A stretch of DNA of 64,000 nt from Vulcanimicrobiales bacterium (GTDB lineage Bacteria; Vulcanimicrobiota; Vulcanimicrobiia; Vulcanimicrobiales; Vulcanimicrobiaceae): assembly GCA_038215615.1 (NCBI GenBank), contig JBBQQR010000007.1, positions 1 to 64,000 on the forward strand, read 5' to 3'. The position numbers are program-made. Below are positions 21,001-27,000 of the stretch, in pieces (position 1 is the stretch's first letter; each line of letters starts with the position of its first letter).

Positions 21001-24000
21001 CGATTGTCGCCACGCCCCCATACCTCGCAAGCCGGATCGATTACGATCCGATGCTGCCTCCGATGCAGGGACAATCATTGCGGCGCCTCTTGAGCGGCGC
21101 TGCCATTCGCGGCATTACCATTTACGATAGTAGTCACGCGCTGCGGCCTGACAGCAGGGCGCTCATAGTCGGACGCATCTGCAAATCGGAAATCGACTCG
21201 CCGTAAGGCGGGCGCAGGATGCCGTACTCTGTTACGAATGCCGTAATGAGATGGTTGGGTGTAACGTCGAACGCCGGATTGTACGCGTCGGCGCCGGGAA
21301 GCGCCGTGCGTGTTCCACCGAACCCTCCCACCTCATCCGCCGCGCGCTCCTCGATCGGAATATCGCTTCCCGATGCAATCTCGAAATCGAACGTCGAACG
21401 CGGCGCTGCGATATAAAACGGAATGCGGTGATGCGCCGCCAGAATCGCTAACCCGTACGTGCCGATTTTGTTCGCGGTATCGCCGTTGCGCGCGATCCGG
21501 TCGGCGCCGACAATGACGAGATCGATCTCCTTGCGCTGCATGGAAATCGCTGCGGCGGAATCGACGACCAGCATGGCGTCCACGCCCGCTTGCGACAGCT
21601 CGTAATACGTCAGCCGCGCGCCTTGCAAGAGCGGGCGCGTTTCACCGACGAAAACGTGCGGCCGTTTTCCGGCGCGTGCCGCAAAGAGAATCGTTCCCAG
21701 CGCGGTGCCGCTGCCGGCGGTCGCGAGCGAGCCGGTATGGCAGTGCGTGTAAATCGTTGCGTCGCGCTCGATGAGTTCGGCCGCGGCTTCGGCGATGCGC
21801 CGGTCCGTCTCGCGCTGCTCGGCGTGTATCGCCTGCGCTTCGGCAAGCATATCCTTCGATTTCAGAACGCGCTCCACGGCCCAGCGCAGGTTCACGGCGG
21901 TCGGACGGGCCTCGCGGACGCGCGCCACCGCGGCCTGGAACTTCAGCTCGTCCGCGATCTGCGAGCGCAACAGCGCGACACCGTACGCGCCGAAGACGCC
22001 GATGCACGGCGCACCGCGCACCGCGAGCGTTCTTATCGCTTCTTCGAGATCTTCGGCTGAGACCGCGCGCCGTACGATCGTCTCATGCGGAAGCGAACGC
22101 TGATCGACATATTCGATCGCGTCGCCGGACCAGCGTACCGCTTCCGGTGTTTCGATCGCTAGACGGACGCCGCCGGCGCGTGCGCCGTGTAGCACGTGCG
22201 GCAGTAGACCGGCCGATCCCCGCGCGGCTTGAACGGCACCGTCGTGTTGGTGCCGCACTGCGCGCAAACAGCCTCGAAACTCGGGCGGTTTCCGCCCGGT
22301 CCTGGAGCTTTGCGGGACTGACGGCAATCGCGGCAGCGCTGGGGTTCGTTTTGAAACCCTTTTTCAGCGTAGAATTGTTGGTCGCGAGCCGAGAAAACAA
22401 AATCCCGACCGCAGTCTTTACAGGTGATGTTTTTGTCTTCCAAGGGACGGGCCTCCACGAAGTAGCAGGGGCTTGGTAATCCGCCCTTAGCGCGCGGGAA
22501 CCCTTGTGTCCGCCGTGATACGCAATAGCGTCGCAGCCGCGATTGCAGCATGGTAGCCTTTGTCACCGCGCTTGGGATCCGCACGGAACTCAGCCTGCTC
22601 GAGCGTGTCGGTCGTGAGCACGCCGAATCCAACCGGGACGCCGGTGGTCAGTTGCACGTGCATGATGCCGCGCGCCGCCTCTCCTGCGACGTAATCGAAG
22701 TGCGCCGTTTCCCCGCGCACAACCGCGCCGAGCGCCACGATCGCATCTGCGCCGCCTCCAGAAATCACGGCGCTGGCGGCCAGCGGTAATTCGAAACAGC
22801 CCGCTACTTCGTACGCGCGTATATCTTCTTCACGCACGTTGCATGCGCGCAACGCGCGGCGCGCGCCGGCTTCGAGCCACTGCGCGATCTGCGGATAGAA
22901 GCGCGCGGTAATGATCGCGAAGCGCATCCCGCTGCAGTCGATTGCCTCGGCCGTGCTATTTTTTGTCATCCAGCATATGTCCCATTTTGTTGCGCTTCGT
23001 CTGCATGTAGCGGTTGTTGAACGGCGTGCGCTCCGTTTGCAGCGGCACGCGGTCGACAATTTTTAAACCGTAGCCTTCCAGGCCGAAGATTTTGCGCGGA
23101 TTGTTGGTGATGATGCGCATCTCTTTCACGCCCAGATCGGCCAAAATTTGCGAGCCGATCCCGTAGTCGCGTTTGTCGACCGGCAGGCCGAGAGCGATGT
23201 TGGCTTCGACTGTATCGGCGCCTTGGTCTTGCAGTTCGTATGCGCGCAACTTATTGGCAAGCCCAATGCCGCGCCCTTCCTGACGCAGGTACAAGAAGAC
23301 GCCGCGGCCTTGGCCGGCGATAATGCGCATCGCCGCGTCGCGCTGCTCCGCACAGTCGCAGCGGATCGAATGGAGCGCATCGCCCGTCAAGCATTCGGAA
23401 TGCACGCGCACCGCGATATTTTTACCGTCACCGATCTCGCCCATCACCAGCGCAACGTGCGTGTTATTGTCGATGCTGTTTTCATAGGCGTAACCGGTCC
23501 ATTCGCCAAGCGGCGTCGGGAGCTTGAATTCGGCGATGCGGTGCAACAGTTTTTCGGTGCGCCAGCGGTAAGCGATTAAATCTTTGACGGTGATGAGTTT
23601 CAGGTCGTGCTTCTTGGCGAAGGCAATCAAACCATCAAGGCGTTCCATCTTCCCGTCGTCGGCCATGATCTCGCAGATAACGCCGGCCGGATACAATCCC
23701 GCCAAGCGCGCGAGGTCGACCGCAGCCTCGGTTTGCCCGGCGCGCACCAGCACGCCGCCGTCGCGGGCCCGCAGTGGAAATGAATGGCCGGGACGCAGCA
23801 GGTCCGACGGTTTCGTGGCCGGATCGAGCAGCGCCGCGATCGTCGCCGAGCGATCGTGCGCCGATATTCCGGTGGTCGTCCGTCCGCGGGCTTCCACCGA
23901 AACCGTAAAGGCGGTTTCGTGCAGCGCGCTATTTTCGGAGACCATCTGCGGTAAGTGTAGCTCGTCCAAACGTCTGCCGATCACCGGCACGCAGATCAGA

Positions 24001-27000
24001 CCGCCCGCGTGTTTACGCATGAAGTTGATCGCCTCGGGCGTCACCATCTGCGCGGCCATCACCAGGTCGCCTTCGTTCTCGCGGTCCTCGTCGTCGAGCA
24101 CGATGACCATCTTGCCGGCGCGGATGTCGCGCACGGCGCCCTCGATGGGATCGAACGGCGAGGACTCCTCGAGCGTGCCGTTGAGTTCCGGCAACACCTG
24201 GGTCAGCCGCTGCAGCGAACGGTAAGACGGCTCGCGCTGCCCGGACCGCAAGTAAGAGATGGCCGCCTCGGTCAGCCCACTCCGGTCGGCCAATTCTGCT
24301 GCGGTGAGGCCTGCTGAGGTCATGGCGGCGTTGAGCTCATCGGCGAAGTTGGTCACCAGCCCAGCGTACGGGTCCGACTTAACAGTTGTCAAGTCGATAT
24401 ACCTCACGCGCGAGGGCTCGCCCGCGCGGTCTTCTTGGGGCCATGGGCCGGAAGACCTACGGTCGCTTGCTTTTCTGCCGATAGTAAGTTCGGGGGTTAT
24501 CGGTGTGGAGCAACGCAGCAATCACGTAGCAGTCATATTTTTCGCGTTGGGCGTGCTTATAGGCGCGCTCAGCGTGCTTTTTATAGCCCGCAATAACGCG
24601 GTTGCGCACGAGCAGCTCGTGAGCAACCGCTGTAGTGCGCAGGCCTGTCAGACGGGCGCTTTACCATTCTGGTAACGCGACTTCGATAGCGCCCCCGCCG
24701 CACACCCAAGCGAACTAGCGAAAGAGCGAAGGTTCGAACGTTACGATCGGCTTGAGAATTTCGGAGCGTTGAAGAGCGGCGTACGCCGCCGGAGCCTCTT
24801 CCAGCGAATAATAGGTTGCGCCCAGGCGCTCGGCCGTGACCACGTGTCGCGCAATCATATCGAGCGCGGCCCGCGTATCCGGCGGACCGCACGAGTAGCT
24901 CGGAACAAAACGCAGATCGCGAAAATACAAGTCGTTCGGATCGAACGTGAACGGAATGCCGGGCTCGAGCGGCGTGAACATCACCACAGTTCCCCCGGGC
25001 GCTGCGGCCGCAAATGCATTGCGCAGCGCTTCAGGCGAACCGGGGCCGCAAATCACGACGTCCGCGCCGGAAAACGGCTGCTCGGGACTCACCGCACGAA
25101 TGCCGAGCGAACTGGCGAAGCTGCGACGCGATTCGATGAAATCGCTTCCGACGACTTGCGCGCCTTGCGCCTGCGCGGCCAAACCGTGCATGAGCCCCAT
25201 CACGCCCAGGCCGATCACGTAAAGCGTATCGCCTTCCCGCAGTCCTCCGCGGCGCAATGATTTCATGACGCAGGCCAGCGGCTCCACCAGCGCGCCATCC
25301 GTAAATGGCAGATCGACGGGCAGTTTTAAGGTGTCGCGTAGATTTTCACGCGGCACGCGGAAGTACTCGGCCAAGCCGCCCGGATCGATCTTGGTTGCGC
25401 GCCACGTCGCGCATTGCACGTACTCCCCGCGAGCACAGGCGCGGCATTCAAAACATGGCGCGTGGTGATGCACGAAAACGCGATCGCCCGGGGCAAATTC
25501 ATCGCTCGCCGATTCGACCACCACACCCGCCGGCTCGTGCCCAAGCACCAACGGCGCTTTTCGGCGGATGTACCAGCCCATCACGTCGCCCGTGCAGATA
25601 CCGGCGGCACGCGTTTGCACGAGGATTTCGCCTTCGCCTATCGCCGGCACGTCGCGCGCTTCGATGCGGATGTCGTCGACGTCATACAGCACGGCGGCGC
25701 GCATTTTTTCGCCGCGTTTCACGGCGTCACCGCAAATTTTATGCCTTCGCCGTTTTTCAAACGTTCGAAGACGCCCGCAATCTCGGCGAGTGGCACGGTT
25801 TCCGTGATCAGCGGCTGCGGGTCGATCTTCTGCTCCACCAGCAGGTCCCGCGCGCGCTTCACGGCCGCCGGTGTAAAGTGAAACGGACTGATCAGCCGGA
25901 TCTCATCGTAGTGCAGCCGGGACGCGGTGAACAGCGCCTTCGCATCGGCCGGTAATCCGCCGAAGAACGAAACCGTGCCGCCGCGCCGGGCAAGGTCGGG
26001 TGCAGCTTCCCACACCTCTTGGCGGCCCGTACATTCGATGACGACGTCGGCTCCGCGATCGCGCGTGCGCTTTCGTACTTCGTCGCCGATGTTTTGGCTA
26101 CGCGTGTCGATCGTCTCTATGCCGAGGGCGCGCGCGATCTTCAAACGAGCTTCCCGGCGCCCCGCCAGCAAAACCGTTGCTCCGCTATGCCGCAGCAACA
26201 TCGCGTGCAGCAAACCAAACCCTCCGTCGCCGATAATGAGCACCGTATCGTCGGGGCGGCTGTTCAAAAGATCCAGCGAGTGAACCACACATGAGAGCGG
26301 CTCGAGAAAGGCTGCAGTCGCATACGAAAGCGCCGGTGGTTTTGGATAGCAGTTGCGTTTCACGATGCGTTCGGGAATCGCGATGTACTCAGCGTAGGCG
26401 CCGAGGATCATCGTCGACATGATCGTCTCGCACAGCTCCTCCTGAGCGCGCTTACACCAGTAGCATTCACCGCAGGGCGCCGTGTGCACGCACATGACGG
26501 CGTCGCCGGCAGCGAAGCTGCTGTCGCTGGCGGCAACGTCGCCCGAAAACTCGTGGCCGAAGGGCGTCGGCATCGGCATGCGTGGGTGGCCGCGCCGAAA
26601 GGCCTTAAAATCGGTCCCATCGGTCAACGCGGTGCGAACGCGCACTACTAAACCTCCCTTAGGTGGTTCGGGAACCGGCAAATCTTGCAATTCGATCGTA
26701 CCCGGGCGCAAAAGCACTGCGGCCCGCATCGTTTTGGAGGCGATCAATCGATTTCTTCCAGACAAGCCATCAACGCGTCCCGAATCTCTTGCGGAATCGG
26801 CCGGCTCTTGTGCGAAGTGCGGTCGATGCAAACGACCGTCAGATCCATTTGCGCGCCGGCTTCCCCTGTGCGCTCGTTGTGCATCACGGTTTTCCATTTT
26901 ACCGATGACGTGCCGACATGATAGATGCTCGTCTTGAGCGTCAGCCAGTCTTCCATCGCGGCGGGTTTAAAATAATCCGCCACCACGTGCACGCGCGGAA

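What a model noticed while it worked through the whole genome (the two positions that open the first line are those of the whole stretch)
22956..24407. RibBA fused to an N-terminal XRE-type helix-turn-helix in a phylum without detectable FMN riboswitches
The bifunctional riboflavin enzyme RibBA (DHBP synthase + GTP cyclohydrolase II, g00948, 483 aa) carries an extra 85-residue N-terminal part with an XRE-family helix-turn-helix, and no FMN riboswitch is found in this genome or in 40 other genomes of the phylum. I read the protein as an enzyme-repressor that binds DNA and sets transcription of the rib genes according to substrate or product occupancy of its catalytic domains, replacing the FMN riboswitch that controls riboflavin synthesis in most bacteria. 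New would be a protein-based feedback switch for riboflavin synthesis built into the first pathway enzyme.
Evidence so far: pfam.tsv: HTH_3 E 7e-8 at residues 28-72, DHBP_synthase 90-280 (E 2e-87), GTP_cyclohydro2 290-455 (E 4e-70) on one gene. The gene lies in ribD g00954 - ribE g00953 - (thioesterase, two dehydrogenases) - g00948 - ribH g00947, all on the minus strand. The first 130 residues match from residue 5-18 onward, in one frame with RibBA, in 6 of 7 other family genomes sampled; in the 7th and in 3 genomes of another family only residues 83-130 (the enzyme) match; 30 further genomes of the phylum give no match at E<=1e-6. Rfam FMN (RF00050): 0 of 41 genomes of the phylum at E<=0.001, this genome included, while the same search rings over the cut-off in 7 of 14 control genomes (E. 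coli, B. subtilis, Ther [...]
(Added by a program. Inside this text positions count along the whole contig: contig position 1 is position 1 of the stretch shown here. "Call 12" and the like, gene names such as g00115 and contig names such as C1 are that model's own, and its searches are not shown. The text may have been shortened before it was handed on; [...] marks where a part breaks off. The agent that wrote the report below was given it as the finding of a first reader that could run no searches.)

Follow-up and report, generated by a model that had tools for sequence, protein, structure and literature searches.

The report
Riboflavin enzyme with built-in repressor head
In one order of the soil phylum Eremiobacterota, the first enzyme of vitamin B2 synthesis carries a DNA-binding head and sits behind a conserved palindrome on its own promoter, so it most likely shuts off its own gene, a protein-based control where most bacteria use an RNA switch.

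Summary
One minus-strand gene encodes an XRE-type helix-turn-helix (HTH_3, 30.4 bits, cut-off 23) followed by DHBP synthase and GTP cyclohydrolase II. It is the only copy of either enzyme in a 100%-complete genome. No FMN riboswitch was found in this genome or over the cut-off in 151 genomes of the phylum.

Three corrections:
- The true start is GTG 24356 (466 aa), not 24407.
- The fusion is confined to one order (f1 278/296, f2 5/5), not the whole phylum.
- An operator candidate does exist.

A 16-bp palindrome, CTTGACA-NN-TGTyAAG, overlaps the -35 box of a leaderless promoter in 51 of 51 fused loci. It is the only such site in the genome: 28.8 bits, next best 15.9. It is absent from all 6 unfused ribBA loci examined, at least two of which are secondary losses of the HTH.

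Best reading: a bifunctional enzyme and autorepressor of the ribBA-ribH unit. ribD and ribE are not under this site. Control by a metabolite is untested, and no DNA binding has been shown.

I found no published HTH-RibBA. The closest known case is archaeal RbkR. I rate it a new variant of a known kind.

The parts
22956..24356 (-). HTH-ribBA coding sequence, revised: GTG start at 24356, TAG stop at 22956-22958, 466 aa
   Evidence: The start is placed by alignment A1, by in-frame stops upstream of it in 21 of 30 related loci, and by the fixed promoter geometry.
24162..24356 (-). N-terminal XRE-type HTH domain, revised residues 1-65. It has five helices; helix 3 (res 30-38) is the recognition helix.
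   Evidence: Pfam HTH_3 at revised residues 11-55. AF2 models give pLDDT 78-95. Foldseek finds C.BclI, C.AhdI, SinR, HipB, DdrO and P22 c2 at TM 0.7-0.8.
24153..24191 (-). Variable linker, revised residues 56-68
   Evidence: 47% mean identity with indels, against 77% for the HTH and 81-84% for the enzyme domains.
23568..24140 (-). DHBP synthase (RibB) domain
   Evidence: It is the only match in the genome.
23043..23540 (-). GTP cyclohydrolase II (RibA) domain
   Evidence: It is the only match in the genome. Three cysteines in HSECLTGD...RCDC are invariant in 46 sequences.
24378..24393 (-). Candidate operator: the 16-bp imperfect palindrome CTTGACAACTGTTAAG (7-2-7), spanning about -37 to -22
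   Evidence: Unique in the genome: 28.8 bits against 15.9 for the next best. Present in 51 of 51 fused loci. Absent from 6 of 6 unfused loci.
24387..24392 (-). -35 hexamer TTGACA, the left half of the palindrome
   Evidence: The hexamer is exactly TTGACA in 46 of 51 loci.
24363..24368 (-). -10 hexamer TACGCT, 18 nt after the -35 and 6 nt before the start codon
   Evidence: A TAnnnT hexamer is present in 45 of 51 loci. The gap to the start codon is 6 nt in 36 loci, 7 in 5, 8 in 3 and 4 in 1.
22487..22927 (-). ribH (lumazine synthase), 28 nt after the ribBA stop; likely the same transcript
   Evidence: ribH follows HTH-ribBA in most related loci that reach far enough downstream.
27178..28849 (-). 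ribD-ribE, the upstream part of the cluster, not preceded by the palindrome

Best explanation
HTH-RibBA is a working bifunctional riboflavin enzyme (DHBP synthase plus GTP cyclohydrolase II). Its N-terminal XRE helix-turn-helix probably binds, as a dimer, a single 16-bp palindrome that covers the -35 box and the first part of the spacer of its own promoter. By blocking RNA polymerase there, the protein would repress its own leaderless ribBA-ribH transcript, holding the level of the pathway's entry enzyme steady.

Shown by sequence and comparison: the fusion, its conservation, the palindrome, the promoter geometry, and the co-loss of HTH and palindrome.

Inferred: DNA binding, repression rather than activation, and the dimeric mode.
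For: 1. The fusion is real and conserved.
- It has one open frame.
- 72 protein clusters share it.
- It is present in f1 278/296 and f2 5/5 genomes.
- The HTH is 77% identical across relatives, against 47% for the linker.
- T29, E30, S34, R41, P43 and S44 of the recognition helix and turn are invariant in 35 sequences.

2. It is the working enzyme.
- It is the only DHBPS and the only GCHII in a 100%-complete genome.
- Both domains match their Pfam models over the full length.

3. There is an operator candidate.
- All 51 fused loci have CTTGACA-NN-TGTyAAG about 24 nt before the start codon (L028, from an unpublished genome, was dropped).
- The right half, which is not a promoter element, is as invariant as the -35: G11, T12, A14 and A15 are each 51/51.

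4. The site is unique.
- In the own genome it scores 28.8 bits, the next best 15.9.
- In 121 family genomes, 103 have a match with at most 1 mismatch. This is nearly always one place read on both strands, and the reversed-pattern control is mostly 0.

5. HTH and palindrome are lost together.
- In 6 of 6 unfused ribBA loci (3 from f3, 3 from f1) the best PWM score within 600 nt upstream is -9.1 to -1.0 bits. Fused loci score 14.3 to 30.3 bits.
- On a tree of the enzyme part, the f1 cases G144 and G161 nest inside fused clades (SH-aLRT 97). The starred branches force at least 3 changes of state.
- In G077 the TTGACA-17-TAGCCT-6-ATG promoter survives, but its right half-site is gone.

6. The mRNA is leaderless.
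- 45 of 51 loci have a TAnnnT hexamer 16-18 nt after the -35, with a gap of 6 nt to the start codon in 36 of them.
- Genome-wide, TAnnnT lies exactly 6 nt before the 5'-most start of 48 of 3409 ORFs (1.41%). Other offsets give 0.35-0.82%, and internal control codons give 0.28%.
- This leaves no room for a 5'-UTR riboswitch.

7. The fold fits.
- The AF2 model of the domain has mean pLDDT 86.
- It matches DNA-binding XRE repressors: C.BclI, C.AhdI, SinR, HipB, DdrO and P22 c2.

8. A hint of co-variation between protein and operator.
- The recognition-helix residue after I-S is Y or L, and operator position 13 tracks it: Y-T 33, Y-C 2, L-A 7, L-C 7, L-T 2.
- Loci L050, L031 and L052, where the palindrome lies closer to the start codon, each keep a TTAAC half-site.
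Against: - No experiment shows DNA binding or repression.
- The left half of the palindrome is also the -35 box, so only about 7 positions are independent evidence for an operator.
- The -10 is weak: TACGCT matches TATAAT at 3 of 6 positions, and the consensus scan does not call this promoter.
- 6 of 51 loci lack a simple TAnnnT. In 3 of them (L031, L050, L052) the palindrome sits about 10 nt closer to the start codon.
- Fusion and palindrome share one origin, so 51/51 is not 51 independent cases. Only 2-3 losses are independent.
- The Y/L versus position-13 pattern may reflect a single split of the clade.
- XRE-like domains also occur in enzymes not known to bind DNA: cyanase 6xgt, HppE 1zz7 and HEPD 6b9r are among the fold matches.
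- The transcription start site is not mapped, and no RNA run holds the locus.
Confidence: 0.6

Rival explanations
1. Metabolite-gated trigger enzyme. The same autorepressor, but its DNA binding is switched by occupancy of the catalytic domains (ribulose-5-phosphate, GTP or their products) or by a flavin. That would give true feedback or feed-forward control of riboflavin synthesis.
For: - Known enzyme-regulator fusions (BirA, NadR, PutA, RbkR) use the enzyme domain as the sensor (passages of PMC5397151).
- The HTH is joined by a short linker (res 56-68) to the N-terminus of DHBPS.
- The phylum has no FMN riboswitch.
- The leaderless mRNA leaves the promoter as the only place for control.
Against: - No tool result bears on ligand dependence.
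- RibBA's substrates are central metabolites, not end products. I know of no flavin site on RibBA (from memory).
- Plain negative autoregulation explains the data without any ligand.
- ribD and ribE are outside the regulon.
Confidence: 0.25
2. The HTH does not bind this DNA. It has a structural or protein-contact role, and the palindrome is bound by another factor or is a promoter peculiarity.
For: - XRE-like N-domains occur in cyanase, HppE and HEPD.
- The left half of the site equals the -35 box.
- No binding has been shown.
Against: - The right half-site is invariant in 51/51 loci yet is not a promoter element.
- It is lost in all 3 f1 lineages that lost the HTH. In G077 the promoter itself survives.
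- Surface residues of helix 3 are invariant.
- The site is unique in the genome, beside the only gene with this HTH.
Confidence: 0.12
3. The HTH-RibBA dimer activates rather than represses its own promoter.
For: Some XRE proteins, such as the controller C proteins, activate from sites next to the -35 (from memory). The -10 is weak.
Against: - The site covers the -35 and runs into the spacer, about -37 to -22.
- The -35 is a perfect TTGACA with a 17-18 nt spacer, which needs no realignment.
- G077 keeps the promoter without the site.
Confidence: 0.08
4. Annotation artefact: two genes (a small XRE regulator and ribBA) wrongly merged.
For: One relative (G327) shows the two parts in different frames.
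Against: - The frame is uninterrupted in the window and in the listed matches (stops inside: none).
- 72 clusters from several sources call it as one protein.
- There is no ribosome-binding site or start codon at the junction.
- No free-standing close homologue exists: the 5 small hits are contig-end fragments.
Confidence: 0.02

Closest known systems
RbkR of Archaea: CTP-dependent riboflavin kinase fused to an N-terminal winged HTH (Rodionova et al. 2017, PMC5397151; passages read)
   Same: - A flavin-pathway enzyme with an N-terminal DNA-binding domain.
- It is the only copy of the enzyme in its genomes.
- Its operators were predicted by comparative genomics.
- It occurs in organisms without FMN riboswitches.
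   Different: - Domain of life: Bacteria here, Archaea for RbkR.
- Enzyme: the entry enzyme RibBA here, the last-step kinase for RbkR.
- DNA-binding domain: XRE five-helix HTH here, MarR-like wHTH for RbkR.
- Ligand: RbkR's catalytic site binds FMN, the natural signal. No such link is known for RibBA.
- Regulon and sign: RbkR controls several rib and transport genes and is thought to activate. Here there is one site, at the protein's own promoter, placed for repression.
Bacterial enzyme-repressors ('trigger enzymes'): BirA, NadR, PutA (named in PMC5397151)
   Same: [quoted passage not shown] The operator lies at the pathway genes.
   Different: Those use other HTH classes and other pathways, and their ligand control has been shown. 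Here it is untested.
FMN riboswitch (RFN element, Rfam RF00050)
   Same: It controls entry to riboflavin synthesis. In E. coli only ribB is under it (PMC5397151 introduction). Here, likewise, only ribBA-ribH carries the site.
   Different: The riboswitch is an RNA in a 5' leader that senses FMN. Here there is no match and no leader at all; the control element is DNA bound by a protein.
Small XRE autoregulators, e.g. restriction-modification controller proteins C.BclI and C.AhdI, SinR, DdrO (best fold matches)
   Same: The five-helix XRE fold. They bind palindromic operators at or near their own promoters as dimers (from memory).
   Different: Those are free-standing 70-130 aa regulators. Here the domain is the head of a 466-aa enzyme, whose enzyme domains would supply dimerisation (DHBPS and GCHII dimers are recalled, not tested).
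RibR of Bacillus subtilis (review PMC13028884, passages)
   Same: A protein that modulates rib expression.
   Different: RibR acts on the FMN riboswitch RNA, not on DNA, and is not a RibBA fusion.

Membership tests
XRE / HTH_3 (PF01381) DNA-binding domain | Profile match above the curated cut-off | tested here: met
   30.4 bits against a cut-off of 23, E 4.2e-7. 70 of 72 relatives carry PF01381.
XRE / HTH_3 (PF01381) DNA-binding domain | Five-helix Cro/CI-type fold with helix 2-turn-helix 3 | tested here: met
   AF2 helices at 4-15, 19-26, 30-38, 45-54 and 56-65, with pLDDT 86. Foldseek probability 1.00 and TM 0.7-0.8 to C.BclI, C.AhdI, SinR and P22 c2. The E-values are only 3e-3 to 4e-2 because the domain is short.
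XRE / HTH_3 (PF01381) DNA-binding domain | Sequence-specific DNA binding | not testable with these tools
   Only inferred, from the conserved palindrome and its co-loss with the HTH.
RibBA bifunctional enzyme | Full-length DHBP synthase and GTP cyclohydrolase II domains in one chain | tested here: met
   Profile positions 2-191 of 191 and 2-165 of 165 are matched.
RibBA bifunctional enzyme | Catalytic residues kept, and the protein is the pathway's enzyme | tested here: met
   The acidic loop DDEDRENEGD and three cysteines of the GCHII motif are invariant in 46 sequences; their roles are recalled, not tested. It is the only copy of each domain in the genome. ribD, ribE and ribH are present. 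Activity itself was not assayed.
Enzyme-repressor ('trigger enzyme') such as BirA, NadR, PutA, RbkR | DNA-binding domain fused to an active enzyme, with a cognate operator at pathway genes | tested here: met
   The fusion is shown. The predicted operator at its own ribBA-ribH promoter is shown. The operator is a prediction only.
Enzyme-repressor ('trigger enzyme') such as BirA, NadR, PutA, RbkR | DNA binding switched by the enzyme's ligand | not testable with these tools
   No evidence either way.
FMN riboswitch (RF00050) | Covariance-model match upstream of rib genes | tested here: not met
   0 matches in the own genome at E<=1. None in window 20000-32000 at E<=10. 0 of 151 phylum genomes over the cut-off.
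Leaderless mRNA | -10 box 6-8 nt before the start codon, no Shine-Dalgarno, 5' end at the start codon | tested here: inconclusive
   The geometry is met in 44 of 51 loci (gap 6-8 nt), and there is a genome-wide peak at 6 nt. The 5' end is not mapped, and no RNA run was found.

The most novel reading that the evidence does not exclude
HTH-RibBA is a metabolite-gated trigger enzyme. Occupancy of its catalytic domains, or a flavin, changes how the two HTH heads of the dimer sit on the palindrome, so that the entry enzyme of vitamin B2 synthesis measures pathway demand and sets its own transcription. It would be the first protein-based feedback switch for riboflavin synthesis in Bacteria, arisen in a phylum that has no FMN riboswitch.
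Probability: 0.25. Interest if true: 0.8.

Novelty: new variant of a known kind. Interest (0 to 1): 0.66.

Why it matters
In bacteria, riboflavin synthesis is the textbook case of riboswitch control. A 2017 paper called archaeal RbkR the first transcription factor for riboflavin metabolism (PMC5397151). A 2026 review lists only the FMN riboswitch and RibR for bacteria (PMC13028884).

A conserved DNA-binding head on RibBA, with a predicted operator, would be a bacterial protein-based answer to the same problem, and it is directly testable. The operator is 16 bp. The clade has a cultured member by name (Vulcanimicrobium). Natural HTH-loss variants also exist for comparison.

The finding also gives a clean example of a leaderless, promoter-only control design in a little-known phylum.

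Tried and rejected
- Wider regulon. Nine second-site candidates were fetched and annotated. 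None lies by a rib gene or a transporter. Two lie before a stretch without ORFs. Two are intragenic. One (G147) is a copy of the promoter module beside an IS1595 transposase.
- Operator or leader before ribD. In 28 related loci ribD mostly follows another gene directly, a comF-like phosphoribosyltransferase or a small conserved gene, and no shared motif appears.
- Free-standing homologues of the HTH. Only 5 small proteins were found, all apparently contig-end pieces of the fusion. This search is word-based, so distant relatives could be missed.
- Other HTH-RibBA fusions elsewhere. Among the best 150 representatives, I scanned 26 with unusual length. These are RibE-, RibD-, HAD-, flavokinase- and RibH-fusions. 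One carries TetR_N-RibBA and one sigma70-RibBA. None carries HTH_3.
- Consensus promoter scan. It does not report the promoter, because its rule needs 4 of 6 matches in the -10.
- Expression. No RNA holder is listed for the locus.
- Sequence search of solved structures. It gives only weak XRE matches, best E 0.0017.
- Literature. Six searches found no HTH-RibBA. One search was rejected for its term format and not repeated.

Full report
**What is there**

The minus strand of the window holds an ORF at 22956..24521. Its product matches three Pfam families in one frame:
- HTH_3: 30.4 bits, cut-off 23, E 4.2e-7.
- DHBP_synthase: E 5.8e-87.
- GTP_cyclohydro2: E 2.2e-69.

A treble-clef zinc-finger protein and an MtnA-like gene follow.

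The fused gene is the only DHBP synthase and the only GTP cyclohydrolase II in a genome rated 100% complete. It must therefore be the working enzyme.

**Whose genome**

Sources label close relatives as Candidatus Eremiobacteraeota, Vulcanimicrobi... and Vulcanimicrobiaceae. NCBI taxonomy places that family in the phylum Vulcanimicrobiota. The window itself is unnamed.

**No FMN riboswitch**

- RF00050 gives no match at E<=1 in the own genome.
- Nothing appears in window 20000-32000 at E<=10.
- No match over the cut-off appears in 151 genomes of the phylum. There is one 22.3-bit match in a 62%-complete genome.
- The same search rings in 7 of 14 control genomes, including the G+C-rich Thermus, Deinococcus and Corynebacterium.

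**Where the fusion occurs**

A search with the first 90 residues found 72 protein clusters. All are RibBA (some are fragments) and 70 carry HTH_3.

I then searched six frames of 401 genomes of the phylum, 13 of them unpublished, with revised residues 1-113:
- Family f1: 278 of 296 genomes match.
- Family f2: 5 of 5 match.
- All 150 match rows that one search lists, and the two f2 matches, start at query residue 1-4 and so are fused.
- Families f3 (27/30), f11 (3/3) and f20 (10/16) match only weakly.
- In three f3 genomes the match begins at residue 53-58. There ribBA starts at MPLA(T/R)IE directly after ribE, with no HTH.

The fusion is therefore a trait of one order, not of the phylum. The riboswitch, by contrast, is missing from the whole phylum.

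**The start codon**

The start is therefore GTG 24356, and the protein has 466 aa.

**A leaderless promoter with a palindrome**

Read on the minus strand, the sequence just upstream of GTG 24356 runs as follows:
- CTTGACAACTGTTAAG at 24393-24378.
- 9 nt.
- TACGCT at 24368-24363.
- 6 nt.
- GTG.

The 16-mer holds a perfect -35 box (TTGACA). It is also a 7-2-7 inverted repeat.

I located the same element in all 52 fused loci fetched. These span 30+ genera and both families. After dropping one locus from an unpublished genome, 51 remain:
- T2, A5, C6, G11, T12, A14 and A15 are each invariant in 51/51.
- T3 is 50/51, A7 49/51, G4 48/51, T10 47/51 and G16 46/51.
- The two central bases vary freely.
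- Position 13 is T in 35 loci, C in 9 and A in 7.

The right half (TGTyAAG) lies in the promoter spacer, where RNA polymerase reads no sequence, yet it is conserved as strongly as the -35 box. That is the mark of a protein-binding site.

In 45 of 51 loci a TAnnnT hexamer follows the -35 after 16-18 nt. The gap from it to the start codon is 6 nt in 36 loci, 7 in 5, 8 in 3 and 4 in 1. Such a fixed, short gap leaves no room for a ribosome-binding site. It means the transcript starts at the start codon.

This geometry is not a one-off in this genome:
- TAnnnT lies exactly 6 nt before the 5'-most start codon of 48 of 3409 long ORFs (1.41%).
- Other offsets give 0.35-0.82%.
- Internal in-frame codons give 0.28%.

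A leaderless mRNA cannot carry a riboswitch.

**One site per genome**

- A weight matrix built from the 51 sites scores the ribBA site at 28.8 bits. The next best place in the 2.2-Mb genome scores 15.9.
- With up to 3 mismatches the window's 16-mer occurs only there.
- In 121 family genomes (5 unpublished), 103 have a match with at most 1 mismatch. It is nearly always a single place read on both strands. The reversed-pattern control is mostly 0.
- Where coordinates can be compared, that place is the ribBA promoter.
- Nine second sites were inspected, and none lies by a riboflavin gene. In G147 the second copy sits beside an IS1595 transposase and looks like a duplicated promoter module.
- In relatives ribD mostly follows another gene without a gap, and the 28 upstream regions share no motif.

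The unit under this site is therefore ribBA-ribH only. ribH follows in most loci that reach far enough.

**HTH and palindrome are lost together**

Four f1 genomes gave only enzyme-range matches. One of them, G018, is cut by a contig end and says nothing. A fifth, G327, has the HTH in a shifted frame and still has a site of 18.1 bits.

The remaining three (G161, G144, G077) have ribBA without an HTH. Together with the three f3 loci they make 6 unfused loci. In all 6 the best matrix score in the 600 nt upstream is -9.1 to -1.0 bits, against 14.3-30.3 bits for the 51 fused loci.

I built a tree of the enzyme part. It has 76 rows: 45 of the 72 proteins plus 31 loci. Six loci with truncated or frameshifted genes and one unpublished locus were dropped. 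I used the quick method, which gives SH-aLRT support only.
- G144 sits inside a clade of four fused proteins (support 97).
- G161 sits inside a clade of nine fused proteins (support 97).
- The well-supported branches force at least three changes of state, that is, one gain and two losses.
- G077 sits on a long branch and is not placed.

In G077 the promoter survives as TTGACA, 17 nt, TAGCCT, 6 nt, ATG. The right half-site, however, is gone. This natural deletion series is the best evidence that the HTH and the palindrome work together.

**The domain itself**

- Across 45 relatives, the HTH core (res 13-55) is 77% identical to the window's. The linker is 47% identical, and the enzyme domains are 81-84%.
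- T29, E30, S34, R41, P43 and S44 are invariant, and L36, R37 and G39 nearly so, in 35 sequences (34 of the 51 loci plus the window).
- AlphaFold2 folds residues 1-65 as five helices: pLDDT 78-90 in the full-length model and a mean of 86 in the domain model.
- Foldseek matches DNA-binding XRE proteins: C.BclI, C.AhdI, CapH, SinR, HipB, DdrO, ClgR and P22 c2, at TM 0.7-0.8 and probability 1.00. The E-values are only 3e-3 and weaker because the domain is short.
- The same list holds enzymes with an XRE-like domain that are not known to bind DNA (cyanase, HppE, HEPD). This keeps the non-DNA rival alive.

There is also a hint of readout. The residue after I-S in helix 3 is Y or L, and operator position 13 tracks it: Y-T 33, Y-C 2, L-A 7, L-C 7, L-T 2. 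This may rest on a single split of the clade, so I count it only as a lead.

**How it most likely works**

The site spans about -37 to -22. It covers a perfect -35 box with a near-optimal spacer. A dimer bound there would block RNA polymerase, so repression is more likely than activation.

The dimer would be held together by the enzyme domains.

Because the protein represses its own gene, its level is held steady. This is plain negative autoregulation of the pathway's entry enzyme and, through the operon, of ribH. Whether a metabolite modulates binding cannot be told from sequence.

**What is known**

Searches of the paper library found no HTH-RibBA.
- The closest system is archaeal RbkR, a riboflavin kinase with an N-terminal winged HTH. 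Its paper calls it the first transcription factor for riboflavin metabolism, and lists BirA, NadR and PutA as bacterial enzyme-regulators (PMC5397151, passages read).
- A 2026 review names only the FMN riboswitch and RibR for bacteria (PMC13028884, passages read).
It is not independent evidence, and its phrase 'across a whole phylum' is too wide.

**Verdict**

- The metabolite switch, and control of all rib genes, are not supported.
- It is a new variant of a known kind (enzyme-repressor fusions), with a short list of decisive experiments.

**Unpublished genomes**

They are included in the tallies.

Noticed in passing
window 24543-24586 (+ strand): A terminator-like hairpin (15 pairs, then CTTTTTATAG) lies on the + strand in the 320-nt gap between the upstream ADH gene and the ribBA promoter. 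On the minus strand it has no T-run. I do not know what it ends.
   Followed up: no
window 24396-24403 (-); also L005, L017, L018, L021, L022, L024-L027, L049, L053, L057: An A+T-rich element (GGTATATC or similar) lies directly upstream of the -35 box in 13 of 52 loci. It could be an UP-like element, or the -10 of a divergent promoter on the other strand.
   Followed up: partly
window 26744-27181 (-); L019, L028, L033, L034: A 4HBT-type thioesterase sits between ribE and HTH-ribBA in f1 and f2 loci, but not in the three unfused f3 loci, where ribBA follows ribE directly. It may have arrived together with the fusion. Its role in the rib cluster is unknown.
   Followed up: partly
proteins P0145 and P0152: Among RibBA representatives elsewhere, one carries an N-terminal TetR_N domain (621 aa) and one carries sigma-70 regions 2 and 4 (655 aa). 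They are either independent regulator-RibBA fusions or merged gene calls. HAD-RibBA (P0099, P0149), RibD-RibBA, RibE-RibBA, RibBA-flavokinase and RibBA-RibH fusions also exist.
   Followed up: no
L038, L039, L040, L042 (about 40-70 nt upstream of the ribBA operator): A second, unrelated palindrome (ATACTTGAAAC-N4-GTTTCAAGTAT) is shared by four genera upstream of the ribBA promoter. It is probably the operator of a divergently transcribed regulator.
   Followed up: no
L058 (G147:C2:1685300-1690300): An IS1595-family transposase and a 313-aa ORF of no family lie between two copies of the promoter/operator module, 2.1 kb apart. This looks like a recent insertion that duplicated the module.
   Followed up: partly
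whole genome G000: TAnnnT is enriched exactly 6 nt before the 5'-most start codon of long ORFs: 48 of 3409, about 2.5 times the neighbouring offsets. This suggests a sizeable set of leaderless genes in this phylum.
   Followed up: partly
window 28813-29514 (+): The comF-like phosphoribosyltransferase gene points away from ribD here. In 12 or more relatives a homologous gene lies on the same strand and ends just before ribD, a local inversion. L068 (same genus) has no such gene just before ribD.
   Followed up: no
L098/L102 (G327:C14:664665-668001): In this relative the HTH and the enzyme part lie in different frames, either a frameshift or an assembly error. The operator-like site is more diverged (CTTTACAGCCGTTAAG, 18.1 bits).
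   Followed up: partly
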